Assembly: GCA_000004985.1 (NCBI GenBank)
Contig: GG738888.1
Length of the DNA: 64,000 nt
DNA from: Naegleria gruberi
Taxonomy: Eukaryota
Strand: one strand, 5' to 3'
This document shows positions 14,511 through 49,449 of the stretch, piece by piece. The notes below the pieces were generated by a model, which had not been told where the DNA came from, ran no database searches, and saw nothing but the letters and a program-made list of their open reading frames with translations. Position numbers and translations under genes: made by a program. Numbering within the stretch: the stretch's first letter is position 1; each line of letters starts with the position of its first letter.

Positions 14511-16229
14511 TTACCGCACCACTAGAAAATGAATACATTGAATAAGTTTCCCAAGTTGTTTCTTGAGCATTGTATCAAAATTTGGGGAATCACTAATTTT
14601 AAGTTCAGAAATGCTTCTGTTTTGAGCATAGCTTATCAATGCCTGTAATGTCATATTGCTCAACTTGTTAGATTTAATGTGGAGAGTTGAAATTTTTGGT
14701 TCAAAGTTCAAATAATCAATTATTCCTGAATCAGAAACACCACAATTATTAGCTTCCAATTTAATTATGGATAGAGGGCTCAATAAAGATAAACCAGTAT
14801 CTCCAATACTTGGATTGTTAGAAATATTCAATTCTTTCAACTGATTCATCTTTGAAATGACATCACAACATTTATACGAAACATAATTATGACTAATGTC
14901 TAGATGGATAAGATTCCTAAATTCACTTCTGAATAATTCAATAACTGATTCATCTCCAATATCATTTGATCCAACGTGTAAATATTCCAACTCATTACAA
15001 TTACTCAAATATTTCAATCCATTTCCAATTTTGTTATTATTTAACATTAAATATTTCAGTAATTTTAAATTTCCAAAGTTTCTCAAACCCTCTTCACCAA
15101 TTAAACTTTCTTTCAAAGATAAATTTTCAAGTTTGACATTTTCTGATAGATAATTAGCTCCAACATCTCCAACTTGATTACTTGACAAGTTTAATATTTT
15201 GAGTTGAGAAAGTTTATAAAAATATTTCAAACCTTGCCCACCAATTAAATTATTCGAAAGATTAAGTTCTGTTAAATTAGAAAGTGAGCACAAATTAATT
15301 GCTCCTTCATTTCCAATCCTATTATTCTGTAAATTCAAACTTTTCATATTTTCCAAATATGGAAAATTACAAGCAGTTATTAAATTGTTATCCAAATGGA
15401 GCTCCTCAAGCTTCTTCAATGTTGAAAGGTCTTTAACTGCTTCCTCTTTAATTCTTCCCTTGGAAATGAAATGAAATTTCTTTAAATTTCCAAGTGGAGA
15501 AATAAATTTCATCTCTTCTTCAAATAAATTGTTTCTAAATGTTAAACAAAATAGATCAGTAATGGATTCCAATTTCCGAATATGTTCAAAAATTGATTTC
15601 TCTATAAAAGTGTTACAAATTCCAAAGTTCTTTAACTTGTTGGCGAATTTGCTTTCGAATATTGAAATGTATGATTTTGAATTCAATTGACCATGCAGAA
15701 ATAACCTCTCCAATGGCCAATCCAATTGATCAAATAATAAATCTTCAACTTGTACATTTACGCGCTCTGGTGACCATGTTTTAATGAAGAGCGTTTTAAT
15801 CTTGGACTTGGTTTCGAATAGTAATCGAATACTATTAATATTCATTTTCACTAATTGCACATTTTCCAATGTCTTCAATTTGGAAAATTCAACAATTACA
15901 TCATTACTGCAATTAGACAGTTTCAATGACTTTAAATTGGTCAACTTGGAAATAAACTCTATATTCGAATCTAAATATTCGCTCGGATGGCATTCTAAAT
16001 GAGTTATTTTGTGTAATTCATCGGAATGTTTCGTTAAAATAATTTCTAAATGTTTACTTTCTTCAGAAAATTGCATTGGAAAGTAAAATGTTGGAGTTGA
16101 TTTGTAATTTTCATTCCAATTTTTACAAACTAATCTTACAGTATTTAAAATCCATGTATATTCGAAATTGGAAAGAATTTGATCGAATATTATTTCGGAG
16201 GGAATTACACCAAACTCTCCTTTCATCAT
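14511..16229 (-). CDS. F-box-like / leucine-rich-repeat (RI-type LRR) protein
   Basis: The probable ATG is at about 16229 (aaaaATGATGAAAGGAG). The track ORF starts upstream at ATT. The N-terminus IPSEIIFDQILSNFEYTWILNTVRLVCKNWN is F-box-like. More than 12 LRRs of the LxxLxLxxNxIG type follow (LNLQNNRIGNEGAINLCSLSNLTELNLSNNLIGGQG...). Confidence 0.55.
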   Translation of the reverse strand: MMKGEFGVIPSEIIFDQILSNFEYTWILNTVRLVCKNWNENYKSTPTFYFPMQFSEESKHLEIILTKHSDELHKITHLECHPSEYLDSNIEFISKLTNLKSLKLSNCSNDVIVEFSKLKTLENVQLVKMNINSIRLLFETKSKIKTLFIKTWSPERVNVQVEDLLFDQLDWPLERLFLHGQLNSKSYISIFESKFANKLKNFGICNTFIEKSIFEHIRKLESITDLFCLTFRNNLFEEEMKFISPLGNLKKFHFISKGRIKEEAVKDLSTLKKLEELHLDNNLITACNFPYLENMKSLNLQNNRIGNEGAINLCSLSNLTELNLSNNLIGGQGLKYFYKLSQLKILNLSSNQVGDVGANYLSENVKLENLSLKESLIGEEGLRNFGNLKLLKYLMLNNNKIGNGLKYLSNCNELEYLHVGSNDIGDESVIELFRSEFRNLIHLDISHNYVSYKCCDVISKMNQLKELNISNNPSIGDTGLSLLSPLSIIKLEANNCGVSDSGIIDYLNFEPKISTLHIKSNKLSNMTLQALISYAQNRSISELKISDSPNFDTMLKKQLGKLIQCIHFLVVR

Positions 16230-16390
16230 TTTTTTAACTCGAATATTTTGCAACTTTCTGTTTTGCTCTCTTCCGTATTACTGTTATTAGATTGAATATT
16301 CCTCTGAATTAATTGATGATTTTCAAAATCTTGTCTGTTTCGTTTTTGCTCATTTTTACATCTTGAACATTGATGATTTAATTATGATGT

Positions 16391-21037: not shown

Positions 21038-22762
21038 ATGAAAAGAACAACTACACAGGAATCTTCGGAAGAAGCACTCTCAGAGCAATCATCATCCAAA
21101 AAGCTAAAACTTGATCAAAATTGTCAGCTTGGTCTTTATTCCTTGCACTCAGATATCAAACTTTACATTTTAGAATTTATTCAATTTTTTCTTTCTCGTC
21201 ACTTGATAGTTTCTGAATTTGATGAGCATTCGTTAGAGCTTGAACATGTTGATGTTTCATCGAAGGAGAAATTGTGGGAACATACCAAGGTGATGGCTAG
21301 GAGACAATTGTTAAAGTTAATGTTTGGTTATTTCGTGGATGAAAGTAGACGAATTCATCTCCTATTCAAGCATGTGAATTTTTGTGCAAGTGGTATTTTT
21401 CATCAACATGAGTTGTTCACAGAGTTGAGATTTAGAGATTTGAAATCAATTGAGTATTCGAGAAATTACTTGTTTTCAAGTAAATATTTTGATTTTAAAG
21501 AGTATTTGCCGAGATTGGAAGCTGTTTGGGGATTAAATATTGAAGTAGAAGAGGATGCAAAGAGTTTTCTTGCTCATGATTTGAGTAGAATGAAATCTGT
21601 TTCTTTTGGTTACCTCGAGAAAGATGTTTGTGTACCAGAATCTATTGGATTTGAAACTTTCTTTTCCAAATTGACCAATCTTACCACTCTCGAACTGTCT
21701 TGTGGTTATATTGATGAAGAGTTTGTTTTTGCCCTGATGAAAAGCGTAAAACATTTGAGAAAGGCCACATTCACAGAGGCCACCTTGAACAATGATGCCT
21801 TACAAATGTTATTGGAACAAGCAGAGTTTTTGGAGGAGTTGGATGTTAGCATGCCAAATGATTCCTTCGATCTTGATTATATATTTGATAGAGTCAAGAG
21901 GCCACTCAAGCTTACTAAACTTTTTGCTGAGAGTAATGATGTTACAGAAAAATTCTTTGTAAATATTGTAAAGGCAGCAAAATACCTTGGTAATTTGAAA
22001 GTTTTATCAATCTCACCTTATATGATCAATGATGAAGAACTTTGGAAAAATTTATTTAATAGCTTCCCTCAATTGACTGAGCTGGAACTAAGCGATCAAA
22101 CTTTAACAGAGTCAATCATGTCACATATTCATGTATTGAAAGAATTACGCTCTCTGAAATCGAATTTAGAAACCACCAAAGGTCTTGAACTTCTTCTCCA
22201 TTTCAAGTCACTCACTCTCTCATGCTTGACTAGAGAAACTAATTTGGATTTCTCCAAGCTGAACCATTTGGAATTTCTTGCCATTGATGCCTTGTACAAT
22301 ACCATATTGGACAATTTCGATAAGGATGAAAGCTTACCAAAGTTAAAGAGAGTCAAACTTTACCTTATTAATGATGTTGAACGCACTATTGATGAAGTTA
22401 AACAAATTGCAGAAAAAAGGCCTGAAATTAGATTTTCCTTGATATTGCATGAAGGTGTAACTCCAGTCGATATCTTTGAGAGAATTCTTTCCTGTAAAGG
22501 AATTGATGAATTGGATAGTTTTAATGCAAAAATTCCAGATGCCATTGAAACTAACTCCACCCTTAAATCCTTAACTATACTTAACGCGAAATCATTAGCT
22601 AATTTGGAACTTTTACAAAACAACAAGACTTTGGAAGTATTGAATCTCTATTCAGCGGATATTTTTGAAGGTGAATATGTGAGTGAAATTTGTAATTTAT
22701 TCCGTAACTCACAAGCTGAGCATATTTCACTTATTGATCCATCTATTGTTGGTGAACCATAA
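21038..22762 (+). CDS. F-box-like / leucine-rich repeat protein, 574 aa
   Basis: Start context is aaaaATGAAAAG. The N-terminus has YSLHSDIKLYILEFIQFFLSRHL, which is F-box-like. Repeated L-rich segments follow (LTTLELSCGY, LKVLSISPYMINDEELWKNL, LTELELSDQTL, LEFLAIDAL). Confidence 0.5.
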   Translation: MKRTTTQESSEEALSEQSSSKKLKLDQNCQLGLYSLHSDIKLYILEFIQFFLSRHLIVSEFDEHSLELEHVDVSSKEKLWEHTKVMARRQLLKLMFGYFVDESRRIHLLFKHVNFCASGIFHQHELFTELRFRDLKSIEYSRNYLFSSKYFDFKEYLPRLEAVWGLNIEVEEDAKSFLAHDLSRMKSVSFGYLEKDVCVPESIGFETFFSKLTNLTTLELSCGYIDEEFVFALMKSVKHLRKATFTEATLNNDALQMLLEQAEFLEELDVSMPNDSFDLDYIFDRVKRPLKLTKLFAESNDVTEKFFVNIVKAAKYLGNLKVLSISPYMINDEELWKNLFNSFPQLTELELSDQTLTESIMSHIHVLKELRSLKSNLETTKGLELLLHFKSLTLSCLTRETNLDFSKLNHLEFLAIDALYNTILDNFDKDESLPKLKRVKLYLINDVERTIDEVKQIAEKRPEIRFSLILHEGVTPVDIFERILSCKGIDELDSFNAKIPDAIETNSTLKSLTILNAKSLANLELLQNNKTLEVLNLYSADIFEGEYVSEICNLFRNSQAEHISLIDPSIVGEP

Positions 22763-22990
22763 ATTAATCAAATCCTATTGTTTAGAACTTTCGCCAACTT
22801 TATTCAAAACCTTAATTACTCTAATAATGAAAATAACTAACTTCAATATTTCCAATGGGAAATGGATGGTCAACTCGAATATCCACCAAACCCCTATTCC
22901 GATAATTATCGGAACTGCTCATCACATTTCATTGTCCGAAAAGTCCATTAATGCAATTTTGTAACAAACTTGTCCAATTAATCAAAAAAA

Positions 22991-24376
22991 ATGAAAGAAA
23001 ACCACAGCAACTTGATCCTCACACTGCTGTTCATATGTTGTGTGTGTATTGTTGCCTCTCATCAACAAGAAAAAGAGCAATCAACCTCCGATGAATATTC
23101 ATCAAAAATTAGAAAATTCACAATTCCCTACGATGAGAAAGAATGGCACGATTTAAAACAAACACTGAACAAATCAATTGCCAAATTAAAATCCCATCCA
23201 GATTCTATGGTTCCTTTCTATTCCGAAACTGATCGTGCTTGGAAAATGGGAAGTCAAATTAATCAAGTTTTGGAATTGGCTGAATATTGGAAGAATGAAT
23301 TTGATTGGAAGAAACAAGTTGATTTAATGAATGAATTGTTTCCACATTACGAATCCCAAGTTGATGATCATGTTACTGTTAGATTTGGTTGGAGACAAGC
23401 TAAGAGTCAAATTGAAAAACCATTGAAAGAGAGAAAGGTATTGATGATTGTTCATGGTTGGCCAGGATCAATTATTGAATTCCATAGAATTATTAACACA
23501 TTGGTAGATGTTCATGGTTTTGATGTTGTGGTCCCTTCAATTCCAGGTTATGGATATAGCTCTATTCCAAGAAAGGAAGGTTATCATATTGGCAAGGTTG
23601 GCCAAATTTTCGCTCAACTCATGAAAAACATTGGCTATGGCAAATATATTGTACAAGGTGGTGATTGGGGATCAATGATCACAATGTACGTTGCCAGAGC
23701 AGATCCAGAGAATTGCATTGGATACCATTCCAATATGTGTCTCGTTATTCCTAATTGGAGAGATTGGATTGATGTTGCCAAAGATTTAATTACCCAACTC
23801 GTGAGTGGAACTCCATACAGTTCAAATACCAACAGTTTCTCATCATTCCTCTCGGGTTGTTTAACTTACATCACTGAGGAAATTGGTTATCAAGCTATGC
23901 AAAGCTCAAAACCAGATAGTATTGGAGTAGCTCTCTTAGATTCACCTCTTGGATTGATGAATTACATTTTGGAAAAGTTTGTTTCTTGGACAGATATTGA
24001 GCCACGTGATACAACTGGTCTTTTCAAGGTGATTACCAGAGATGAATTCTTAACCAATGTCATGATTTACTATACTACCAATACTATTGATTCTAGTATG
24101 AGAAAATATTACAATGTTGCTAAAGGAGCTGAAGAACACAAGTTGGGTACCAAGAATTATTTGCAAACTCCAACTGCTTGTGCTGTTTTCAAAGATTTAT
24201 TTAGAGCTCCAAAGTCAACTGCTGCCCGAAACTTTAATCTCATTCAATATAATAGGTATGAAAAGGGAGGACACTTTGCTGCTTTGGAAAATGGTCAAAC
24301 TCTTGTGGATGATTTGATTTCATTCACTGAAAAGGTCTATAACCTTCAAAAAACCAACACTAAGAATGAATTGTAA
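22991..24376 (+). CDS. Microsomal epoxide hydrolase (EPHX1-like alpha/beta hydrolase with N-terminal membrane anchor)
   Basis: The hydrophobic N-terminus LILTLLFICCVCIVASH is followed by an epoxide-hydrolase N-domain. The oxyanion motif HGWPGS and the nucleophile motif GGDWGS are present, as is a C-terminal EKGGHFAALE. Confidence 0.85.
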   Translation: MKENHSNLILTLLFICCVCIVASHQQEKEQSTSDEYSSKIRKFTIPYDEKEWHDLKQTLNKSIAKLKSHPDSMVPFYSETDRAWKMGSQINQVLELAEYWKNEFDWKKQVDLMNELFPHYESQVDDHVTVRFGWRQAKSQIEKPLKERKVLMIVHGWPGSIIEFHRIINTLVDVHGFDVVVPSIPGYGYSSIPRKEGYHIGKVGQIFAQLMKNIGYGKYIVQGGDWGSMITMYVARADPENCIGYHSNMCLVIPNWRDWIDVAKDLITQLVSGTPYSSNTNSFSSFLSGCLTYITEEIGYQAMQSSKPDSIGVALLDSPLGLMNYILEKFVSWTDIEPRDTTGLFKVITRDEFLTNVMIYYTTNTIDSSMRKYYNVAKGAEEHKLGTKNYLQTPTACAVFKDLFRAPKSTAARNFNLIQYNRYEKGGHFAALENGQTLVDDLISFTEKVYNLQKTNTKNEL

Positions 24377-24441
24377 ATATTAAGCAAATAATTCACTGAT
24401 TTGGTTACTTCTTTGAGTTTCACATTCTCTATCGGTAACCA

Positions 24442-25413
24442 TTACTGGATAATACATTTCTTTTTCTTAGATACAGTTTCAACACTTTCTTTCTCCATTC
24501 TATCCATTTCTTGTTGACTATAATAGTATAACCTTATTAGGGAAGATCCAAAATTATCGAAACCATAAGAAACCTCCTTCAGTGGACACGCTGTTTCAAA
24601 AAAGGACAAACAGTTCAACTCCTTGGCTAAATTCGATCCTTCCTCATAGCTCACAAAAGTTTCATTCATCAACTCCAGTTCAGTTTGTACCTCCTTGTCA
24701 TTTCTCAAATCAATTTGGCTTGCTACCAAAACACGAGGAGTATACGGTGCTTTTAACACTGCCTCTTGATTGAATTTAGTTTTCACACATTCGACTATAT
24801 CTATTATTGACTGAATAACAGATAAAAATGATATCTTTCTGTTTGTATTGTAATTGTCTAAATTTTTCATATCTATATCAAATTATACATTATCCTATTT
24901 GTAAACTAATCGTTGAACAACTTACTCTTCCTTACCAATAATTGGCAAACTATAAAAATCCCTCTCTCTATACCATCTTGAATTAACAAAATCTTCCATT
25001 TTCCCTTCTCCCAAACATTTCAAAATCATGCAAGTTGTTCCAACATATCCATTTCCAACAAAAAGAACATTAACACTCAATTTTTGATTTTTCTCCATGA
25101 ACAGATAATCATCCAACAACTCTATTTGTTCAATCTCCTCTCGGGAGAGAAAATTGAATGGTCTGTTATATTTTCTATTGTGTCTGTGATTAGTCCTTGC
25201 ATTTTCAATACACATTCGATTCATGAATTTATTCACAAGCATGAATGAGTGAAAATCAGAAATTTTCATAAATTTGAAAATTATTCGGAACAAGTCATCA
25301 TATAAATCATAAATATTAGCAGCCTCAGCAACAGTAGCATAAGCATTTTGATTCATTTTTTTTGATAGACTAGCTGAATATTGCCACCGATTCAGGTTTT
25401 GCAACTTACACAT
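24442..25413 (-). CDS. F-box-like N-terminus + Ras/Rho-like pseudoGTPase; complement(join(24442..24872,24936..25413))
   Basis: ATG at 25413. YDLYDDLFRIIFKFMKISDFHSFMLVNKFMNRMC is F-box-like. The GTPase-like core has a degenerate P-loop VLFVGNGYVGTTCM, with GK[ST] replaced by GTT. Its G3 is IIDMKNLDNY instead of DTAGQE. G4-like RVLVASQIDL and G5-like FFETACP are retained. A 63-nt intron, with donor GTAAGG at about 24935 and acceptor ...GATATAG, joins the two parts. Confidence 0.65.
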
Positions 25414-25618: not shown

Positions 25619-27850
25619 ATGATGATTTCTTCCAAGACGAACGGAACACGGAATGGTGATATTCATCAGCTGCAAAATCATCATCATACCAATGAGACAA
25701 TTACGGAATTTCCATCACACACTAATGAACATGAGTATTATGATCTTAAAAAGGAGGCTCCTCTTCAATTTTTTGATGAGAATGATAAGGATTTGTGGGA
25801 AAATAAGGAAAAACAACAAGTTGGATTGAAATCAGAGGAAAAGATTGGAGTGGCTGATCCAAGAACTGGATTCGCCAATACAGAAAAGACAAATACCTCT
25901 TCCGATGGAGAGGGTCATTGGGAAGCAACAATTGGAAGGTTTCTATTAAGATTAACAACTGCTAGGAGAATTGTTTCTCTAGTTCTTCTCTGTCAATATT
26001 TTCTTCTACTATTGGGTGCCTACCAACAGGGAACAACAATGTTTTGTATAATGTTATTCACCTGTATTCTTGGAGTAATTAATAATAGCAAATATGTTAG
26101 ATTATCCTTCACCCATAGTGATGATAATGTGGGACATTCGGAGGAGAGAAATAGAGTCTTGATAAGTTTGGCCATCTTCTCTTTTAGATATTGTTTGTTT
26201 CCAGAGCTTCGGATTGTGTTGGTACCATTGTATTTGCTAATTGTCATGTCCTCAAATGTTTTGAGTATCAATTCGTGGTTTTACACATTGGCTCCTATTT
26301 ACTTTACTTTGGCACATTTTGGATGCTCTGGTGTTTATGGATTTATCCAGCATGGAATTTCAAAAGAGTTCTATGATAACTGGGCCTTATTCCTCTCAAT
26401 ATTGATTTTCAGTTATTATGTGATTTCTACTTCAGTGCATTTGAGATCGAAATTGGACAAGTTGGAGCAGACAACAGCTCAGTTGGAGAATGCTCTCTCT
26501 GCAAAAAGTGTATTTCTGAGGCATATTTCACATGAATTTAGGTTTGTATTGAAATTTATGTTTCTATTTTAAAAAACGTTTTGTTTTGTAGATCACCATG
26601 TTTGAGTAGTTTGGGAAGTGTTGAATTATTGAGGGAAACCACCTTGACCGATTATCAGAGAGATTTAGTGGAGACAATTGCATCATCGGATGGAATTTTA
26701 TTGAACCTTATTGAGGATGTTCTCACACTAGTGAAAATTGAACATGAGGAAAGAATTGCTGAAAAGGAGGAAATTACTGAAAAAACAAAATTCTTGACAG
26801 TTTTCAGTTTGGATAATTGTGTGAAAATGATTGGAAATATTATTAAGAGTTACTCTACTCAATTCGAAGTGAATGTTTGCGTTTCAGTTGAGGCTCTGGC
26901 AAAGAACGTTTACGTGAGAGCCAATCAAACAAGAATTCATCAAATTATTTCCAATTTGATGACCAATAGTGTGAAAGCGTCTAAAAAGGGTGATTCAGTT
27001 GAGTTGAGGTGCTATTTGGATGGAATAGAATCTGTTTCGAATGGTGTCACCGAACAAAATGTTGTTTTTAAAGTTATAGATCATGGCATTGGTATTCCAA
27101 AAGAGAAACAGGAAAGAATCTTTGAGCCATTCTCTCAACTTCACAATTTGAATGAATCTGTTTATCCAGGAACAGGATTGGGTTTGTCAACGGTATGTTT
27201 CTATGTATTCTTGCTAATTTCAAATATCATTTAGGTTCTTCATAATGTGAGAGCAATGAAAGGAAATATCATTCTCAAATCGGATCTACATCAAGGAGCC
27301 GAATTCACAGTTACCTTACCGCTAGAAGTTGTAAAACCTGATGAAAAAGATCTGTCGACAGAACAGCACGATATTGACCCTTCCATTAAGAGACAATTGA
27401 AAATTCAAGAAAATTACATTAAACTCTTCTCAACCTTTGATAGATCGGGAGAATGTAAAGGGGAGGCCAGTATTTTGGTAGCTGATGATAATGCCATCAA
27501 CAGAAAAGTCATTCTCAAGCTGATTGAAAGTCTAGGATATAAAGCAGATGCTGTTTGTGACGGGAAACAATTGGTCGAACAGTATGATCCAAAGAGGCAC
27601 AAATTGATCATTACAGATTTTGTAAGTTTTCACGCAATCTTAAATTTCAATAACCATTTATTAGAATATGCCTGTTATGGATGGATTGGAAGCGTCAAAG
27701 GAGATTAGAAAGATACACGGCACTGCAAGGATTGTTGCCCTCACAGGTGACGTCATGGCTGAGACACCAAGCTCTGTATTTGATAAGGTTCTTGTAAAGC
27801 CCATCCACAAGGGTACATTGAAGAAGTGTATTGAGGAAAGTTTGGTCTAG
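25619..27850 (+). CDS. Hybrid sensor histidine kinase with multi-TM N-terminal sensor, HisKA, HATPase_c and a C-terminal receiver; join(25619..26541,26592..27192,27235..27621,27665..27850)
   Basis: About five hydrophobic helices sit in residues 100-270. The H-box HEFR|SPC is split by a 50-nt intron (GTTTGT...TTGTAG). The N-box is HQIISNLMTNSVKAS, with G1 VIDHGIGIP and G2 GTGLGLST. A 42-nt intron begins with GTATGT. The receiver has ILVADDNAINRKV...ITDF|NMPVMDG, split by a 43-nt GTAAGT intron, then ...KVLVKPI. Confidence 0.85.
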
Positions 27851-29357: not shown

Positions 29358-31787
29358 TCATCTTTGGTTCCTCCTTTTCTTTGAGCTTTTTCTTGCACTG
29401 CTTTTCATACTTTTGTTGAATGGAAATTCTTGTTTGTTCGGGTATTGTTTCAGTAAATGAGGAAGTTGTGATAGGGATTGAAAATTGTCAACCATAAAGT
29501 TTTCACATGCATTTTGCAACGCTTTATCGTTGTGAAAAGTAGCCACCTCGAAAATGGAGCAAACATTCGATTTATCCAATAAAGAAGCTACCAAGGTTCT
29601 GCAACATGAGGCAAGCTCATCCATATCAAATAAGAGTGAATATATCAGTAAACCAAGGGCATTATTTGGATTCAATTGTAATCGATCAGTGTACAAGTAT
29701 TTCAACATGTCAATCATTACTTCCTTATAATAATCTTTCAAATGGACTGTCTTTTCTATTGTTTCAAGCATTCCACTACTGACAAGCATTTTGGAGAAGA
29801 ATGGTGATCTTGATAGGAATAATCTATGAGCGTGAATGATAACTTCTTCATTTGTACCTTGGTTGGCTGTTTCATTGTTATTATCCAAGACGAGAGTAAG
29901 ATCACTATCGACTGAATCACCCAATAAGGTATTGAAATCATTTTGTATCGTGTTGAGAATTTCCATTGTAGTTTCAATATTCTTTGATTCTGCTGAAGAG
30001 TAAATCTTTTGAATGATAGGATAATGCTTTTGTTCAGATGTTGCTTGAACGAAGGAAAGAAATGGAAGAGATTCACTAGCTTTCAAGTGAATAGTACCAG
30101 TATATAGATATTTGAGGTATTTCATCAGAGTATTCGAATCACATTCTGCTATATCAACTATTATCATTTCCTTTTCCAAAAATACTCCCTCCAATTGATT
30201 GGTATTAATCCATTGTTTGCTTGATTGTATCTTTTGGTACAGTATTGGACACCTGGCTTTGATAATACATTTGTGAGCCAAAATATAAGGAGAGCTGCTA
30301 CTGGGGGCTAGGTCATTAACTTGGAATGATACATCGCAAAGATAACCTTCCTCTCTCTTTTGATTCAGATATTGAAGTACAGAAACTGACTTGAAAGAAT
30401 CTCCTACATTCAATAATTTCGAGAATGATCGGTGATTCTTTTCCTTTTGCGAGGATCCAATAGCAAATACTTCCCCTTTCAATGTTGTCAAACACTTGTA
30501 ACCAGAAATATTTTGCTTCATTTCATCAGAAACAATTTCAATAAAATTCCACTTATTATCAATAATATCATATCCATAGAAGCAGTCAGATATTCCTTCT
30601 GATTTGTTTCCTCCATAAATAAAAAAGGATCGTTCATTAACACTAAATGAACAATGCTTGAAAAGTGGAGGTGGAATAATTGATTGCACAATTATTTCAG
30701 TCCAAGTTTTGCTAGAAATATCAAGCATGAATAAATCATTGAGTATTTTGTCGCCAGTAGTTACTCCTCCATAAATAAATATTGAATTGGATACTTTGCA
30801 TGCAGAATGTCCATATCTAGCTGATGGCCATCTTCTTAGCTCTTTAAATTGTTTAGGGGGTGAATATGTTGTACAAGTAAAGGGATTATAACTCGCTCCA
30901 TTAAAATATATCATATAGAGATTTTCATCTAATACACCCTTATCAGATTTACCTCCAAATACATACAGATACAATTTGTTTTCAATTAATACCTTTGTCA
31001 TTGTAAAGTGGATTCTATTGGGCAAAGCAGACCTTTCCACTTGAGTTAAATAGGATAGATTTAAGGGATCAGTAACCTTTTCAATTCTGTGAATTTCCCC
31101 TTTTCCAAATATGAAAATTAGTTGGTCAAGTTCTATCATTTCATATCCAATTAAACCAATTGGCAAGCGAATATTTTTGTAAAAAGGGCCATGACATGCC
31201 AAATATAAATTCTTATAGACATATAACACATTTGATGCAATATCATAGCTAATGAAATCGTCATGCATGACATTTCCAGTTCTACCTCCATAAACAAACA
31301 GAAATTTGCAATCACTAGACATGCAACTCAAATACTCAGTTCTACTTAGAAGCTGCTGTACAAAGCTAAATGATTTTGCCCTTGGATAGTGCTCAACTTC
31401 AAATCTTGGATATTCCAATTTCTTTTCGAGCATCTCCTGCTTTGACTTATAGTTATACCAAGTAAATTCGTTTTTCATCAAATATTTGTAGTTTTCATCA
31501 TATTTTGCTGTTCCAGATAGAATAATCACTTGAGGATCCAGTGCATCAAAAAACAAGGATAATGGCTGAGAAACATCCAAATCCAAATTAATTTCCAATT
31601 CCTTGTTTGAAACTTTTTCATCGACAACAACATTTAAATCATCATTATTCAATTCCTGCTCCTGATCAATTAATATTATTGTTTCTCTATTTTCCTTCTT
31701 ATTTGATGGAAGAATTTTCCTTGTTGTTTTCTTCTTATTTTGTTTCTTTTCCGAAAGCTTTTTAAAAACCAATCCATCAAATGACAT
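29358..31787 (-). CDS. LZTR1-like protein: N-terminal Kelch beta-propeller followed by two BTB/POZ domains
   Basis: Kelch motifs include YGHSACKVSNSIFIYGGVTTGDKILNDLFMLDISSKTWTEI and FIYGGNKSEGISDCFYGYDIIDNKWNFIE. Two BTB-like segments follow: CDVSFQVNDL...YILAHKCIIKARCPILYQKI and DLTLVLDNNNETANQGTNEEVIIHAHRLFLSRSPFFSKMLVSS. The N-terminus is basic (KKQNKKKTTRK). Confidence 0.65.
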   Translation of the reverse strand: MSFDGLVFKKLSEKKQNKKKTTRKILPSNKKENRETIILIDQEQELNNDDLNVVVDEKVSNKELEINLDLDVSQPLSLFFDALDPQVIILSGTAKYDENYKYLMKNEFTWYNYKSKQEMLEKKLEYPRFEVEHYPRAKSFSFVQQLLSRTEYLSCMSSDCKFLFVYGGRTGNVMHDDFISYDIASNVLYVYKNLYLACHGPFYKNIRLPIGLIGYEMIELDQLIFIFGKGEIHRIEKVTDPLNLSYLTQVERSALPNRIHFTMTKVLIENKLYLYVFGGKSDKGVLDENLYMIYFNGASYNPFTCTTYSPPKQFKELRRWPSARYGHSACKVSNSIFIYGGVTTGDKILNDLFMLDISSKTWTEIIVQSIIPPPLFKHCSFSVNERSFFIYGGNKSEGISDCFYGYDIIDNKWNFIEIVSDEMKQNISGYKCLTTLKGEVFAIGSSQKEKNHRSFSKLLNVGDSFKSVSVLQYLNQKREEGYLCDVSFQVNDLAPSSSSPYILAHKCIIKARCPILYQKIQSSKQWINTNQLEGVFLEKEMIIVDIAECDSNTLMKYLKYLYTGTIHLKASESLPFLSFVQATSEQKHYPIIQKIYSSAESKNIETTMEILNTIQNDFNTLLGDSVDSDLTLVLDNNNETANQGTNEEVIIHAHRLFLSRSPFFSKMLVSSGMLETIEKTVHLKDYYKEVMIDMLKYLYTDRLQLNPNNALGLLIYSLLFDMDELASCCRTLVASLLDKSNVCSIFEVATFHNDKALQNACENFMVDNFQSLSQLPHLLKQYPNKQEFPFNKSMKSSARKSSKKRRNQR

Positions 31788-45958: not shown

Positions 45959-47155
45959 TTAATTCAAGATGCATTTCTTTTCTTTTTTTAAACTATTTAA
46001 ATATTTAATATCTTTTTCAATCACTTGTTGTAATATTGAATTTAAATTTGTTTGATTACCAAACCTAATTAACTTAACACCTTCTAGAAATGCATTTTCT
46101 ATACCCTCACCAGTTTTAGCACTACAAATAACTATATTTGTATTTGTTAGTTGATACTCATTAATAATATTAATAATTTCATTTTTCAATTTATCAATTT
46201 CATTGTTATCAGTAATTAAATCCATCTTATTTAATGCAAATATAATTGGAATATCTTCTGAATCTCTGATTCTAATTAATTGTTCAACTAAGGTCTTACA
46301 GAATTCAGCTGAGGAAAAATTAAATAAATCGCAAACATTGATAAAACAATCACCAGTTCTCATATATTGATCTATTCATATTAAATTATTGAGATATTCA
46401 AATCAACTTACCCCTATCAAATTAAATGATAAACAATCACATTTCACAACTTACCTCATAGCTGAGTATTCCTCTTGTCCATCTAATTAAATTAATTAGG
46501 ATTATCAAGTTTAATAATTCAATAAATGAAAATACTAACATGTATCTAATATATCAAGTTCAAACACCCTTCCATCAAATTCAATATTTCTTCTATAATC
46601 ATCATAATAACTTGGATCATATTGATCTGTATATCTATTCTGAATAAATCTAACCACAATCGATGATTTGCCTTATATCAAATATAATTACAATAAAAAT
46701 TAGATGAATAACATACCAACACCACCATCACCTATCATTACAAATTTAAGGTAATTGTCAGTAAAATCTAAATATTTAAATTGTTTATATTTAATATATA
46801 AAGTTAACAAAACAATCCTTTTTAAATTTGTTTTTTTAATTATTTGTTCCTTAATTATTTCATTATTCACTTTTATTGGTAAATAATTTTTCAATAACTC
46901 AAAATAAAATTCATTAAAATAATCACATTGATCATCATCGTACATTAATTTTTTACAACTTGTTTGAAAATTTAATAATTGTTTAATTTTAGTTGTATAT
47001 TTAATATTATAAGAATAACTAGTATCAAGAACATATGATAATATATTTAAATGTATTTCCAAGGGTAAATTAACGAACGTATTTTCATTATTGAATGATC
47101 GCATTTTTTTTAATTTAATTAATAATAACAAAAGTTCATCAAAGTAATCTTGCAA
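45959..47155 (-). CDS. F-box-like N-terminus + canonical Ras-family small GTPase; >=4 introns (exons ~46717..47155, 46540..46671, 46455..46482, [46412..46413?], 45959..46371)
   Basis: The N-terminus NLPLEIHLNILSYVLDTSYSYNIKYTTKIKQLLNFQTSCKKL is F-box-like. G1 GDGGVG|KSS is split by a 45-nt GTATGT intron. The G2/G3 region is [37 protein letters not shown]. The last exon has DQYMRTGDCF..., then G4 FALNKMDL and G5 CSAKTGEG. Confidence 0.7.
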
Positions 47156-47540
47156 ATCAAATAAAGCTATGGAAAGTCATCACAATAACAATGTCTAGTG
47201 GTGAAATAAAGAAGATATAAAGACACTCAGCAGTAAGAAACTAAAAGAAGACAATTGATGAAAAAGAGCTTATCGGAATAAGAGGAGTAAATTGCAATTA
47301 TTCTTCCCTGTCCGTCTTTTTGCACTGATGAGGCAAAAATACATTAAATTCATCATCAACACCCTCTCTTATTGAGGAGATATTAATGATGATTATTCAA
47401 CGACAATCAAATAAGAAAAAAATAAGAACAAGAATATTATCCTTCTTCCTTTTAAAATTGACAGACTCTTATGAAAAATGATGAACCACTTGAGAAGAAA
47501 ACATGCCCTGCCAACGGCTTCTACAACAGAGACTGTGAAT

Positions 47541-49449
47541 ATGGCTAATATTACCATCTTGATGGTGAATGATGTTTATGAATTGTTGGCGTAGGTAGTA
47601 GTAATTTAATTTCATTCCGAATGATGATGACAATGATGATGAATTTATTCATGAAGTGATGATAAAGGAGTTGGTGGATTGGCAGAATTGGCAACCATGA
47701 TTGATCAAGAGAAGAATAAATCGAGGTTTTCGATTTCTACTTTGAATGGTGATTTTATGAGTGCTTCGACTTTGGCAGAACAATTTAAAGGAGCTCACAT
47801 GATTGACGTATTGAATAATATGCCAATGTAAGTATGGTGGATGTTTGAATTTCAATGTTAATGTAATATTAGTGATTTTGTTTGTCCTGGAAATCATGTA
47901 AGTTTAGTTTTGGATTAAATTTTGGAATTAATTATTGGAAATTAGGAAGTAAGTGTTAAAATTTGAATAATGTTTGTGAATTTAAATGAAAATAGTTTGA
48001 TTTTGGATCAGAAATTTTGGAGGAACGCATTAAAGAATCTAATTTCAAGTGGATTTGTTCAAATGTTGTGTACAATAATGAGGAAACCAATGATAAAACA
48101 TTCAATAATTCTGAATCGAATATTTTGAAGGGAGTTTACAGAAAGTTTATTATTACTGACCCTGCTTTGGATGGTTTAAAGATTGGATTGTTTGGAGTTT
48201 GTACAAAATATTCGGAATATCTCAGTAAGCCTGGAAAATTAATCAAATTCCAACCAAGTATTCCTATTGCTAGAAGAATGGTCAATGAGCTTAGAAATGT
48301 AGATAAATGTGACGTTGTTATTGCCATTAACCATTTGAATATTGCCGATGATAAGGAACTGGTCAAAAGGGTGCCTGGAATAGATGTAGTAAGTATTATT
48401 TCTTGCAAACTCTTGCTAATTGACACAAATTCAAATACAGGTTTTGTCAGGTCACGATCATGAAGTATACACTGTCATCAAAGATAATTGCCTTATTCAC
48501 AAGGCAGGTCAGGATGCCAGATACCTCACAAGAATTGATTTAATTATAGAAAAGAATCAAACAACTGTAAATACTGGTAATCAATTCCATACTGTAAAGG
48601 TCTATCCATCATGTAACATGATGATTAATCACGGATACAAACCAAAAAAGAAAGTTTCAGATGTCATTCAAAAGTATATGGAAATGTTGCCACCAGGAAT
48701 TTTCGATCAAATTGGTGTCACTGAAACACCACTCTATTCCAGCACTGAAAGCTGTCGTTCTAAGGAAACCACTTATGGAAATCTTGTGGCTGATATTGTA
48801 AGAGAGGTTTGTTTTGAGAATTGTTTTTCAATATTTATTCTTTTTTGTTGTTCTTAAGATGTTTGATGCTGAAATAGCACTTTTCAATGGAGGTGGAATT
48901 AGAGGAGATCGTTTCTACGATCAAGGTAAAAAGATTACCAAATATGACATTCTCAAAGAATTCCCATTCCCTAATGAAATAGTTCTTTCACAAATTAAGG
49001 GAGTTGATTTATTAGCTGCTGTAGAGGAAGGAGTTCAGAAAGCAGAAAGTGTTGTTGGTGCCTTCCCACACTTCTCCAAAGGTATTTCGATCATTTATGA
49101 CAGTAGGAAACCTCCACTCAAACGTATCATTGAAATGACATTCAATGGCGAGAAAATTGATGAAAATCGCGTCTATTCATTTGCCACTGTTAAATATTTA
49201 CTTAAGGGAGGAGATGGTTTCTTCTCCTTGAAGAATGCAACCATTGTCGATCATCCAAGAAATGATCACAAAATTTTTGATATTGTTGTGGAATGGATTG
49301 AAAAATATCACATTTTGAAAGCTCACATTGAGGGAAGAATTATTGATATTGCCAGAGAACGTATCACTAATCAATGGAGTGGAACTAAGGGTGGAAGTGA
49401 TGACGATTTTGCAGGAGACTACGTTGAAGGAGACAATTTGAAATTCTAA
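47541..49449 (+). CDS. 5'-nucleotidase / UDP-sugar hydrolase family (calcineurin-like phosphoesterase + 5'-NT C-terminal domain), 6 exons: join(47541..47590,47657..47827,47873..47897,47996..48388,48441..48806,48859..49449)
   Basis: Metallophosphoesterase motifs are MANITILMVNDVYE (DxH-type motif with Y), STLNGDFMSAS and a GNH...FDFG motif that spans a 25-nt micro-exon (IDFVCPGNH). NFKWICSNVV matches the family's FPxLSANI. The C-terminal domain has FNGGGIRGD and GGDGF. Introns run 45-98 nt, all GT...AG. Confidence 0.75.

What the first reader, a model, noticed from the sequence alone, without database searches (positions are those of the whole stretch)
24442..25413. Paralogous pair of F-box-like + Ras-family GTPase fusion genes; one copy is a pseudoGTPase
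The genes at 45959..47155 and 24442..25413 both have an N-terminal F-box-like helix bundle (LPLEIHLNILSYV... and DDLFRIIFKFMKISDF...) followed by a Ras-like G domain. The 45959 copy has canonical G1 (GDGGVGKSS), G3 (DTYGQEEYSAMRDQYMRTGD), G4 (NKMD) and G5 (SAKTG). The 24442 copy has lost the P-loop Lys/Ser (GNGYVGTT) and the G3 glycine (DMKNLDNY). It keeps the hydrophobic core and the G4-like and G5-like segments, so it should be nucleotide-binding-impaired. An F-box fused to a Ras-like GTPase suggests a GTP-switch-controlled SCF substrate adaptor. The degenerate paralog may act as a regulator or decoy. An LZTR1-like Kelch/BTB protein, whose animal homolog is a CUL3 adaptor that ubiquitinates RAS, is encoded 4 kb away at 29358..31787.
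Basis: partly seen in the sequence, partly recalled or inferred. Interest (0 to 1): 0.65.

Follow-up and report, generated by a model that had tools for sequence, protein, structure and literature searches.

The report
Degenerate F-box–Rho GTPase gene in Naegleria
This is a two-exon Naegleria gruberi gene that joins an F-box (a ubiquitin-ligase docking motif) to a badly eroded Rho-type GTPase domain; it is an uncatalogued, probably decaying member of an F-box–GTPase family already described in this amoeba, and it is not a sister of the Ras-type gene 21 kb away.

Summary
The window is Naegleria gruberi NEG-M. The quoted sequences are real, and the proposed exon join (25413..24936 + 24872..24442, minus strand) gives a protein colinear with Rho GTPases.

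Three parts of the interpretation fail or weaken:
- **Family.** Its G domain is Rho/Rac-type (PDB best hits TC10/Rac1, about 3e-8). The gene at 45959..47104 is a true Ras (HRas 1e-37). The two show no mutual similarity, so they are not a paralogous pair. Each belongs to its own N. gruberi expansion.
- **F-box.** Profile tests support an F-box in the 24442 gene. Support for the Ras gene is sub-threshold only.
- **Novelty.** F-box fusions to Rab, Rho, Ran and Gα GTPases in Naegleria were published in 2021.

On the motifs, the pseudoGTPase call holds and is worse than stated. The P-loop Lys, the switch I region, the G3 Gly/Gln and the G4 Lys are all lost. The farnesylation signal KKKKCIIQ is kept.

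A 99%-identical strain carries a 25-nt frame-breaking insertion at the end of exon 1, which points to a dispensable, decaying copy.

What is new: NCBI annotates only exon 1 (XP_002673833.1), and the 2021 GTPase census omits this gene.

The parts
24936..25413 (-). Gene B exon 1 (first ATG at 25413; the second ATG, at 25356, is the start of the NCBI model). It encodes the F-box, a linker, and the first part of the G domain (beta1, P-loop, alpha1, beta2, beta3).
   Evidence: ORF and splice model. Residues 20-163 of this ORF are annotated alone as NAEGRDRAFT_71103 / XP_002673833.1 / UniProt D2VPY9 'F-box domain-containing protein'. Codon log-likelihood is 0.285 bits/codon in frame and -0.50 and -1.01 out of frame.
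25213..25314 (-). F-box (residues 34-67: IYDLYDDLFRIIFKFMKISDFHSFMLVNKFMNRM).
   Evidence: Pfam PF00646 scores E=0.0022, 18.3 bits (cut-off 20.5), covering profile positions 2-35 of 43. It scores 38.5 bits against an HMM of the same region from 12 N. gruberi F-box–Rac paralogs built without B; 0 of 1000 shuffles exceeded 12 bits. The family profile hits only F-box proteins in the PDB: FBXW21 2.4e-6, FBXO42, FBXO3, Skp2 6e-4, beta-TrCP, KDM2A/B.
25117..25152 (-). Conserved pre-G-domain linker motif FLSREEIEQIEL.
   Evidence: It aligns with FHTREEILACDL, FFTKQEIMEMTV and HFNTREEIESIEI in paralogs. I94 is invariant in the 14-member family alignment.
25033..25056 (-). Degenerate P-loop (G1): GNGYVGTT in place of GDGAVGKT. 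The Lys is replaced by Thr.
   Evidence: Alignments to TC10/Rac1 and to N. gruberi Rac paralogs.
24873..24935 (-). 63-nt intron, GTAAGG...ATATAG, phase 1, splitting the Asp codon (G|AT) of the former DxxG motif.
   Evidence: Only this join keeps both exons in frame. The spliced product is colinear with Rho GTPases across the junction. No transcript evidence could be obtained.
24937..24938 (-). Site of a 25-nt indel polymorphism. The metagenome-derived strain contig L001 has an extra TGGACCTACTAGATTGGGATTTATA just upstream of the splice donor.
   Evidence: L001 (ENA ERZ929261) aligns to window 22143..25028 with differences of 0.6-0.8% in the coding stretches. The 25 extra bases shift the frame: exon 1 then reads ...SLPIIGPTRLGFIW*, and the canonical splice would create TGA at the junction.
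24442..24872 (-). Gene B exon 2 (including the stop codon). It encodes the rest of the Rho-like G domain and the C-terminal tail. It is not annotated in NEG-M.
   Evidence: 142-codon ORF with in-frame codon log-likelihood of 0.135 bits/codon against -1.10 and -0.61 out of frame. tblastn hits come from Rac paralogs. The same ORF, with 2 amino-acid changes, is present in L001.
24859..24872 (-). Degenerate G3 / switch II: D(split)MKNL in place of DTAGQ. Gly60 becomes Asn and Gln61 becomes Leu. About 9 residues are deleted after switch II.
24661..24720 (-). Degenerate G4 (SQID in place of TKxD; Lys becomes Gln), followed by the Rho-insert region DLRNDKEVQTELELMNE.
   Evidence: It aligns to Rac1 TKLDLRDDKDTIEKLKEKK and TC10 TQIDLRDDPKTLARLNDMKE.
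24445..24468 (-). Polybasic stretch plus CaaX box, KKKKCIIQ. A farnesylation-type signal is inferred from X=Q.
   Evidence: Conserved as ...KKKCIIQ, KTCFLQ, KDCILQ and KKCMLQ in paralogs. Cys299 is invariant in the family alignment. The prenylation type is inferred from general knowledge of CaaX rules and was not tested.
45959..47104 (-). Gene A, used as the comparator; it is not a close relative of B. It is a Ras-type GTPase with a 118-aa N-terminal extension and a C-terminal extension ending KKCILN. Exons: 47104..46717, 46671..46540, 46482..46455, 46413..46412, 46371..45959.
   Evidence: The model is identical to Herman et al. Table S8 'Ras XP_002673837.1*'. Pfam Ras scores 116 bits and HRas 1.7e-37. 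The N-terminal extension is shared with at least 11 other N. gruberi Ras genes.

Best explanation
The locus is one two-exon Naegleria gruberi gene. Its product has, in order:
- an N-terminal F-box
- a short linker
- a Rho/Rac-family G domain
- a polybasic CaaX tail (KKKKCIIQ)

The G domain has lost the P-loop Lys, the switch I Thr region, the switch II Gly/Gln and the G4 Lys.

The gene is a divergent member of the Naegleria-specific F-box–Rac expansion and was missed by a published census of that expansion. In that family the F-box presumably docks the protein to Skp1–Cul1, and the prenylated Rho fold supplies the membrane anchor and the partner-binding surface. That would make ubiquitination depend on the GTPase state, or couple the GTPase to its own turnover.

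This copy can no longer work as a GTP switch. At best it is a nucleotide-independent, membrane-tethered F-box protein. More likely it is a marginal copy on its way out in a birth-and-death family, because a near-identical strain carries a frame-breaking 25-nt insertion at the end of exon 1.

It is not a paralog, regulator or decoy of the Ras-type gene at 45959..47104.

Shown here: the domain identities, the family placement, the motif losses, the intact coding signal in NEG-M and the disrupted allele. Inferred: Skp1 binding, farnesylation, loss of nucleotide binding and dispensability.
For: Organism and gene A identity:
- My gene A model matches a manually corrected N. gruberi model exactly.

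Rho identity of B:
- All top PDB hits are Rho-family proteins, and the alignment runs across the splice junction and through the Rho insert.
- tblastn hits come from N. gruberi Rac paralogs.
- A neighbour-joining tree places B with ACER01000440 and XP_002676560 inside the clade of Rac genes that carry the N-terminal extension.
- phmmer scores to those two are 70.8 and 65.1 bits.

F-box:
- Pfam scores E=0.0022 for B alone.
- 7 of 14 family members hit PF00646, best 4.2e-5.
- All 27 PDB hits of the family profile are F-box proteins.
- B scores 38.5 bits against the family HMM built without it, against a shuffle maximum of 12.

Motif losses:
-.
- Across 16 family members, the G3 Gly is lost in 8 and the P-loop Lys in 3. 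The G4 Lys is lost only in B.

Coding signal intact in NEG-M:
- 0.217 bits/codon in frame, within the 0.195-0.434 range of 18 neighbouring genes. Out-of-frame values are about -0.8.

Disrupted allele:
-.

Prior description of the family and of its birth-and-death dynamics:
- Herman et al. 2021, supplementary text and Table S8.

Incomplete annotation, absent from the census:
-.
Against: - No transcript evidence for the splice. The exact spliced protein is not in the 15-billion-sequence collection, and the junction sequence is absent from JGI metagenome contigs.
- The polarity of the 25-nt indel is unknown. It rests on a single MEGAHIT metagenome contig.
- The 142-codon exon 2 ORF and the CaaX box are intact in both strains. 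I estimate roughly a 2e-5 chance of that in neutral AT-rich sequence (my own calculation, no tool call). So any loss of function is very recent, or exon 2 is still under selection.
- B alone is below Pfam's gathering score for both F-box (18.3 vs 20.5 bits) and Ras (19.8 vs 21.6 bits).
- Structure prediction gave no usable model (pLDDT 40).
- Skp1 binding, prenylation and nucleotide binding are untested.
Confidence: 0.7

Rival explanations
1. B is a maintained, functional pseudoGTPase. It would be a farnesyl-anchored SCF substrate receptor, or a decoy, whose nucleotide-independent Rho fold constitutively binds Rho regulators or effectors. The disrupted allele would be a strain-specific loss or an assembly artefact.
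For: - The ORF, codon bias and CaaX box are intact.
- Exon 2 is open in both strains.
- Half of the family has lost the G3 Gly while keeping full-length ORFs and CaaX boxes. That suggests the fold is useful without a normal GTP cycle.
- B and its closest relative ACER01000440 are only 33% identical, yet both keep the tail motif CLSF.ET...KKKCIIQ.
Against: - A frame-breaking 25-nt insertion sits in a strain that is about 99.3% identical in the coding stretches.
- B is the most eroded member, with deletions in switch I and after switch II that probably damage the fold.
- No ortholog was detected outside N. gruberi.
- Both differences in exon 2 between the strains change the amino acid.
Confidence: 0.25
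2. A and B are a paralogous pair of F-box + Ras-like GTPases, and the degenerate copy regulates or decoys the canonical one. There may also be cross-talk with the neighbouring LZTR1-like CUL3 adaptor.
For: - Both have an N-terminal extension starting with an F-box-like helix, a small-GTPase domain and a polybasic CaaX end.
- Profile-profile comparison of the two N-terminal families aligns helix 1, at probability 64% over 19 columns.
- The Kelch/BTB neighbour is LZTR1-like at domain level.
Against: - The G domains belong to different ancient families, Rho and Ras.
- There is no pairwise similarity: E=0.44, and no phmmer hit in either direction.
- A's N-terminus scores -2.8 bits against the B-family F-box HMM.
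- Each gene has much closer paralogs elsewhere in the genome.
- Only these two GTPase loci lie in the window, and nothing links them except 21 kb of distance.
Confidence: 0.04
3. The current NCBI annotation is right. The gene is exon 1 only, a 144-aa F-box protein with a GTPase stub. The downstream ORF is an unspliced dead remnant of a former F-box–Rac gene.
For: - NCBI/JGI model XP_002673833.1 ends at the in-frame stop after ...PIIGKEE.
- In both strains exon 1 terminates shortly after beta3 if it is not spliced.
- No spliced product is on record.
Against: - A G domain cut after beta3 cannot fold as a GTPase.
- Exon 2 keeps a 142-codon ORF with normal codon bias and a conserved CaaX in both strains.
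- A GTAAG donor and a TATAG acceptor sit exactly where the reading frames and the Rho alignment join.
- The same curators corrected many JGI models of this family by hand, marked with asterisks in Table S8.
Confidence: 0.12

Closest known systems
Naegleria F-box–Rac (Rho-family) GTPases (Herman et al. 2021, BMC Biol 19:142, supplementary text and Table S8)
   Same: - The architecture is the same: N-terminal F-box, then a helical linker ending in the F..REEI motif, then a Rac-like G domain with the Rho insert, then a polybasic CaaQ end.
- B's N-terminus scores 38.5 bits against the family HMM.
- The closest paralogs are ACER01000440.1 and XP_002676560.1.
   Different: - B lacks about 60 residues of the central linker.
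- It is the most degenerate member. It is the only one that has lost the P-loop Lys, the G3 Gly and the G4 Lys together.
- It is not listed in that census, and NCBI annotates it only as a 144-aa fragment.
RhoBTB proteins (Rho domain + tandem BTB; Cul3 adaptors) and Rab40 (Rab + SOCS box; Cul5)
   Same: A Ras-superfamily G domain is fused in one polypeptide to a cullin-RING-ligase docking module, and the G domain is often atypical. The review notes that RhoBTB, like Rab40b, is part of cullin ligase complexes. Naegleria also has RhoBTB itself.
   Different: - The docking module here is an F-box (Skp1–Cul1), placed N-terminal to the G domain.
- There is no BTB or SOCS box.
- B has a CaaX anchor. 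That RhoBTB lacks one is from my own knowledge and was not checked here.
TbFRP of Euglenozoa (FYVE + F-box + Ras-like GTPase; PMC3593210)
   Same: It is an F-box placed upstream of a small-GTPase domain in another discoban lineage. Its authors also propose a link to ubiquitylation and rapid turnover.
   Different: - TbFRP has an N-terminal FYVE domain for PI3P targeting. No lipid anchor is described for it in the passages read.
- Its authors report orthologs only in Euglenozoa.
- No homology to B beyond the shared domain types was tested.
PseudoGTPases (Stiegler & Boggon 2020, cited)
   Same: A GTPase fold with disabled nucleotide-binding or catalytic motifs, retained inside a larger signalling protein.
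   Different: Membership is defined biochemically. For B only the sequence is available, and a disrupted allele suggests it may be a dying gene rather than a maintained pseudoenzyme.

Membership tests
Rho family of small GTPases (gene B) | Best similarity to Rho/Rac/Cdc42 rather than to other Ras-superfamily branches | tested here: met
   The top 60 PDB hits are all Rho-family proteins: TC10 3.4e-8, Rac1, Cdc42, RhoA, RhoE. B clusters with the N. gruberi Rac genes.
Rho family of small GTPases (gene B) | Rho insert region between beta5 and alpha4 | tested here: met
   DLRNDKEVQTELELMNETF aligns without gaps to the insert of TC10 and Rac1.
Rho family of small GTPases (gene B) | Intact G1 GxxxxGK[ST], G3 DxxG and G4 [NT]KxD motifs | tested here: not met
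   The motifs read GNGYVGTT, DMKNL and SQID. The switch I Thr region is deleted.
F-box domain (gene B) | Match to a curated F-box profile at the curated threshold | tested here: not met
   PF00646 scores 18.3 bits against a cut-off of 20.5, E=0.0022.
F-box domain (gene B) | Profile-level homology to proven F-box proteins | tested here: met
   The family profile that includes B hits 27 PDB sequences, and all are F-box proteins, best 2.4e-6. B scores 38.5 bits against the family HMM built without it. 7 of 14 members hit PF00646.
F-box domain (gene B) | Binding to Skp1 | not testable with these tools
The single-chain AF2 model of exon 1 had pLDDT 40.6.
Naegleria F-box–Rac family | F-box + linker with the F..REEI motif + Rac-like domain + polybasic CaaX | tested here: met
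   Alignment with 13 family members from Table S8.
PseudoGTPase | Loss of nucleotide binding and/or hydrolysis shown biochemically | not testable with these tools
   Only motif loss is shown.
Ras family (gene A) | Ras-type G domain with intact G1-G5 | tested here: met
   Pfam Ras scores 116 bits and HRas 1.7e-37. The motifs read GDGGVGKS, DTYGQ, NKMD and SAK.
F-box domain (gene A) | Profile-level homology to F-box proteins | tested here: inconclusive
   - Pfam F-box-like scores E=0.33 for the full protein and 0.038 for the N-terminus alone, covering helix 1 only.
- 5 of 12 family members give sub-threshold F-box-like hits. XP_002668120, which lacks the insertion, covers profile positions 2-36 of 47 at E=0.056.
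- The family profile finds no F-box protein in the PDB.
- hhalign against the B-family F-box gives probability 64% over 19 columns. It reaches 86% over 36 columns only after I removed the insertion by hand.
- The AF2 model had pLDDT 40.
Close paralogy of A and B | Mutual sequence similarity above that to other family members | tested here: not met
   BLASTP gives E=0.44. There is no phmmer hit in either direction, while each gene has paralogs at 65-210 bits.
LZTR1-like (29358..31787) | N-terminal Kelch propeller followed by two BTB(-BACK) units | tested here: met
   Beta-prop_ATRN-LZTR1 scores 82 bits, and there are two BTB stretches. The best PDB hit is LZTR1 at 7.4e-17. Orthology and any RAS-directed activity were not tested.
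RhoBTB | Tandem BTB domains C-terminal to the Rho domain | tested here: not met
   No BTB hit in B.

The most novel reading that the evidence does not exclude
B, together with the half of the Naegleria F-box–Rac family that has lost the switch II glycine, could be functional. In that reading they are nucleotide-independent, farnesyl-anchored SCF substrate receptors in which a Rho fold has been re-used as a constitutive recognition module for Rho regulators or effectors. That would be an SCF counterpart of RhoBTB and Rab40. The Ras family of at least 12 genes to which gene A belongs would then carry a second, insertion-split F-box derivative, making GTPase-gated cullin-ligase adaptors a major signalling layer in this amoeba.
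Probability: 0.15. Interest if true: 0.55.

Novelty: new member of a known kind. Interest (0 to 1): 0.25.

Why it matters
F-box–GTPase fusions suggest that a GTP switch can directly gate an SCF ubiquitin ligase. That idea has been raised for Naegleria, and for TbFRP in trypanosomes, but never tested.

This locus adds three modest points:
- **An annotation correction.** XP_002673833.1 is the first exon of an F-box–Rho gene.
- **The extreme end of a degeneracy series.** Within the F-box–Rac family this copy has lost the most, which shows the Rho fold there tolerates loss of the nucleotide cycle.
- **A snapshot of gene decay.** The copy is intact in NEG-M and frame-broken in a near-identical strain.

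It does not reveal a new kind of system.

Tried and rejected
- **Single-sequence homolog search with spliced B.** It found nothing, not even the N. gruberi exon-1 protein that the profile search later returned. The negative result is therefore unreliable.
- **Exact-sequence contig look-ups of neighbouring ORFs.** None was on record.
- **Spliced proteins.** The exhaustive HMMER search and AlphaFold both refuse them, so the full G domain of B could not be modelled.
- **AF2 of B exon 1 (single sequence) and A exon 1 (3-sequence alignment).** These gave pLDDT 40.6 and 40.0. I judged both meaningless and ran no fold search.
- **Exhaustive HMMER with A's exon 1.** It found only two representatives. 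One is an N. gruberi paralog by exact look-up and the other is nearly identical to a third N. gruberi gene. There is no outside relative and no F-box protein.
- **Profile of B and its two closest paralogs against 5.8 billion proteins.** It returned generic Rac/Cdc42 proteins. The ten longer hits I inspected were generic Rac proteins without an F-box.
- **Profile searches of the A-family N-terminus against the PDB, native and insertion-edited.** These returned apolipoprotein A-I and DARPin noise, not F-box proteins.
- **Spliced-junction and allele patterns in JGI metagenome contigs.** No hits.
- **An origin for the 25-nt insertion as a local duplication.** None found.
- **Rejected: B as Ras-like.** Pfam's weak 'Ras' hit is only the generic small-GTPase model.
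- **Rejected: functional linkage to the LZTR1-like gene.** Proximity is the only evidence.
Full report
**Source and gene models**

The window is AT-rich (about 34% G+C) and has long ORFs broken by short introns.

I assembled the gene at 45959..47104 (gene A) as five exons joined by 40-57-nt GT..AG introns. My 320-aa product is identical, residue for residue, to the manually corrected Naegleria gruberi model 'Ras, XP_002673837.1*' in Table S8 of Herman et al. 2021 (BMC Biol 19:142, PMC8296547). The window is therefore N. gruberi NEG-M.

For the gene at 24442..25413 (gene B), the only in-frame join uses the GTAAGG donor after 24936 and the TATAG acceptor before 24872. This is a 63-nt intron in phase 1. 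It gives 302 aa, or 283 aa from the second ATG. The core of the donor, GTAAG, is the same as in two of gene A's four introns, so it is not especially weak.

**What gene B encodes**

Against all PDB sequences, the C-terminal 190 residues hit only Rho-family GTPases: TC10 at 3.4e-8, then dozens of Rac1, Cdc42, RhoA and RhoE entries. The alignments run straight across the exon junction and include the Rho-specific insert (DLRNDKEVQTELELMNE against Rac1 DLRDDKDTIEKLKEKK). Pfam's generic small-GTPase model 'Ras' is just below threshold, at 19.8 against 21.6 bits.

The nucleotide-binding motifs compare with Rac1 as follows:

| Motif | Rac1 | Gene B | Change |
|---|---|---|---|
| G1 (P-loop) | GDGAVGKT | GNGYVGTT | Lys16 replaced by Thr; the following Thr is kept |
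| Switch I | contains Thr35 | about 7 residues missing | the Thr35 position is deleted |
| G3 | DTAGQ | DMKNL | Gly60 and Gln61 lost |
| After switch II | – | about 9 residues missing | deletion |
| G4 | TKxD | SQID | Lys lost |
| G5 | ECSA | ETAC | – |

The protein ends in a polybasic CaaX box, KKKKCIIQ.

But the domain is Rho-type, not Ras-like.

**The F-box of gene B**

Pfam F-box (PF00646) matches residues 35-68 at E=0.0022. The score is 18.3 bits against a cut-off of 20.5, so it is sub-threshold.

Table S8 of Herman et al. lists many N. gruberi 'Rac' proteins with N-terminal extensions, several flagged 'F-box', and gives their sequences. I used these for four tests:
- Among the 20 Table S8 sequences I compiled for comparison, B's best hits are ACER01000440.1 (70.8 bits), XP_002676560.1 (65.1) and ACER01000078.1 (44.7).
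- In a 14-member alignment, B's LYDDLFRIIFKFMKISDFHSFMLVNKF lines up with LNDDVFHIILSFLPFTDLNRLPLISKN and LNDDIFRIVLSFLNVSELMILAIVSKK. A linker motif (F..REEI) and the CaaX cysteine are conserved.
- 7 of the 14 members hit PF00646, best 4.2e-5, and 4 hit F-box-like.
- A profile of the N-terminal region hits 27 PDB sequences at E≤1. Every one is an F-box protein: FBXW21 2.4e-6, FBXO42, FBXO3, Skp2 6e-4, FBXO31, beta-TrCP, KDM2A/B, FBH1, FBXL2, FBXW7, TIR1.

B also scores 38.5 bits against an HMM of that region built without B. The best of 1000 shuffles scored 12.0.

**A and B are not a paralogous pair**

- Gene A's G domain is a canonical Ras: Pfam scores 116 bits, HRas scores 1.7e-37, and all G motifs are intact.
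- BLASTP of A against B gives E=0.44, and that hit is in the C-terminal tail.
- Neither gene finds the other with phmmer in a small database where each finds its own relatives at 65-210 bits.
- A's N-terminus scores -2.8 bits against the B-family F-box HMM.
- In a neighbour-joining tree of the G domains, B sits with ACER01000440 and XP_002676560 inside the clade of Rac genes that carry the N-terminal extension. A sits with XP_002677816 on the Ras side.
- Gene A belongs to its own N. gruberi family of at least 12 Ras genes. These share an N-terminal extension (LPxEI..ILSF ... NFQSI.K ... YFN.FWW ... LKRK.LL) and a C-terminal extension.
- Only these two GTPase loci lie in the window.

**Is gene A's extension an F-box?**

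This cannot be settled with these tools.
- Pfam gives only sub-threshold F-box-like hits, confined to helix 1 (E=0.33 for the full protein, 0.038 for the N-terminus). Five of 12 family members behave the same way.
- One member that lacks the roughly 15-30-residue insertion after helix 1 (XP_002668120) aligns to profile positions 2-36 of 47 at E=0.056.
- The family profile finds no F-box protein in the PDB.
- hhalign against the B-family F-box gives 64% probability over 19 columns.
- After I deleted the insertion columns by hand, hhalign rose to 86% (P=5e-6) over 36 columns. That editing biases the test, and the PDB search stayed negative.
- An exhaustive HMMER search of A's exon 1 against 1.84 billion representatives found only two hits, both matching N. 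gruberi genes of the same family.
- The AF2 model was unusable, at pLDDT 40.

Herman et al. list F-box fusions for Rab, Rho, Ran and Gα but not for Ras.

**Prior knowledge**

The supplementary text of Herman et al. 2021 states that the F-box is the most frequent extra domain on Naegleria Ras-superfamily GTPases. [quoted passage not shown] An F-box upstream of a Ras-like GTPase is also known in TbFRP of Euglenozoa. RhoBTB/Cul3 and Rab40/Cul5 are the animal analogues.

The concept is therefore not new. Two things are new:
- NCBI and UniProt annotate only exon 1 of B, as the 144-aa NAEGRDRAFT_71103 / XP_002673833.1 / D2VPY9, 'F-box domain-containing protein'.
- Neither that accession nor B's sequence appears in the census table.

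**Is B a maintained pseudoGTPase or a dying gene?**

Evidence for maintenance:
- Both exons have codon usage typical of the window's genes: 0.217 bits per codon in frame, within the 0.195-0.434 range of 18 neighbours, and about -0.8 out of frame.
- The CaaX box is conserved.
- Degenerate G motifs are common in full-length family members. The G3 Gly is lost in 8 of 16 and the P-loop Lys in 3 of 16.

Evidence for decay:
- An ENA metagenome contig (L001, ERZ929261) matches window 22143..25028 with differences of only 0.6-0.8% in the coding stretches. It has 25 extra bases immediately upstream of B's splice donor. These shift the frame, so exon 1 reads ...SLPIIGPTRLGFIW*, and the canonical splice would create TGA at the junction. 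I found no alternative in-frame GT/AG pair.
- The only two codon differences in exon 2 are both non-synonymous, though these numbers are too small to test.
- B is the only member that has lost Lys16, Gly60 and Lys116 together, and it has deletions in structural elements.
- No ortholog outside N. gruberi was detected.

My reading is that B is a recently relaxed, dispensable copy in a birth-and-death family. The polarity of the indel and the reliability of a single metagenome contig remain open.

**Mechanism (inferred)**

For the family, the F-box presumably recruits Skp1–Cul1. The prenylated, polybasic tail holds the protein at a membrane. The Rho domain binds partners in a nucleotide-dependent way. 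The protein would then act either as a GTP-gated substrate receptor or as a GTPase that brings about its own turnover.

B cannot be nucleotide-gated. If it is made at all, it would act constitutively or not at all. None of this was tested here.

**The LZTR1-like neighbour**

The protein at 29358..31787 has an Attractin/LZTR1-type Kelch propeller and two BTB units, and its best PDB hit is LZTR1. The domain-level description holds. Nothing beyond 4 kb of distance connects it to B, and N. gruberi is rich in Kelch/BTB proteins, some of them fused to Rac.

**Verdict**

This is a new, probably decaying member of a known kind of gene, and its interest is low to moderate.

Noticed in passing
window 46412..46413 (gene A), flanked by introns 46414..46454 and 46372..46411: To encode the canonical Ras sequence SAMRDQYMRTG, gene A needs a 2-nt micro-exon (GG) between two similar introns of 41 and 40 nt. 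Both introns start GTAAGTTG and end (A/T)ATAG, which looks like a tandem duplication of an intron. The manually curated published model implies the same join.
   Followed up: partly
window 45959..47104 and surroundings (46001..48000): The coding sequence of gene A is only 22.7% G+C, against 33.6% for the window and 32.1% for gene B. The 2-kb bin around it is the most AT-rich in the window, at 25.9%.
   Followed up: no
window 24937..24938; L001 92..116: A 25-nt indel, TGGACCTACTAGATTGGGATTTATA, separates NEG-M from a metagenome-derived, near-identical strain. It lies exactly at the end of exon 1 of gene B and breaks the frame. It has no source elsewhere in the window.
   Followed up: yes
window 22763..22990 vs L001: The intergenic region upstream of the epoxide hydrolase gene differs at about 21% of positions, mostly indels, between the two strains. 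The flanking genes differ by 0.6-0.8%.
   Followed up: no
N. gruberi paralogs from Table S8 of PMC8296547 (not in the window): At least 12 N. gruberi Ras genes share gene A's N-terminal extension (LPxEI..ILSF, a variable insertion, NFQSI.K, YFN.FWW, LKRK.LL) and a conserved C-terminal extension before the CaaX. The census does not flag any extra domain for them. Weak hits to three different Pfam F-box models recur.
   Followed up: partly
N. gruberi F-box–Rac paralogs (Table S8) aligned with gene B: Degenerate nucleotide-binding motifs are widespread in the family. The G3 glycine is lost in 8 of 16 members. The P-loop lysine is lost in 3 of 16: B, ACER01000199 (GVT) and XP_002671259 (GRT). The substitutions differ between members, which suggests independent erosion.
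   Followed up: partly
window 14511..16253 (-) and 21038..22762 (+): Two leucine-rich-repeat proteins. The first has an N-terminal F-box-like motif (IPSEIIFDQILSNF...VCKNW; Pfam F-box-like E=0.043), so it looks like an FBXL-type protein. The second shows only a weak LRR hit.
   Followed up: partly
window 25619..27708 (+): Directly upstream of gene B and divergently transcribed, three consecutive ORFs appear to form one intron-split hybrid histidine kinase. They contain a transmembrane region, an H-box (FLRHISHEF), an ATPase domain and the start of a receiver domain.
   Followed up: no
window 25402..25413: The first ATG of gene B is immediately followed by GTAAGT (ATGTGTAAGTTG), a perfect splice-donor consensus. 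The NCBI model starts at the second ATG (25356). The true start is therefore uncertain.
   Followed up: no
tool behaviour, vs 50: The single-sequence search with spliced B reported no hit at E≤0.01, yet the database holds a 100%-identical 144-aa N. gruberi protein, which the later profile search returned. Negative results from the word-indexed search should not be read as absence.
   Followed up: yes
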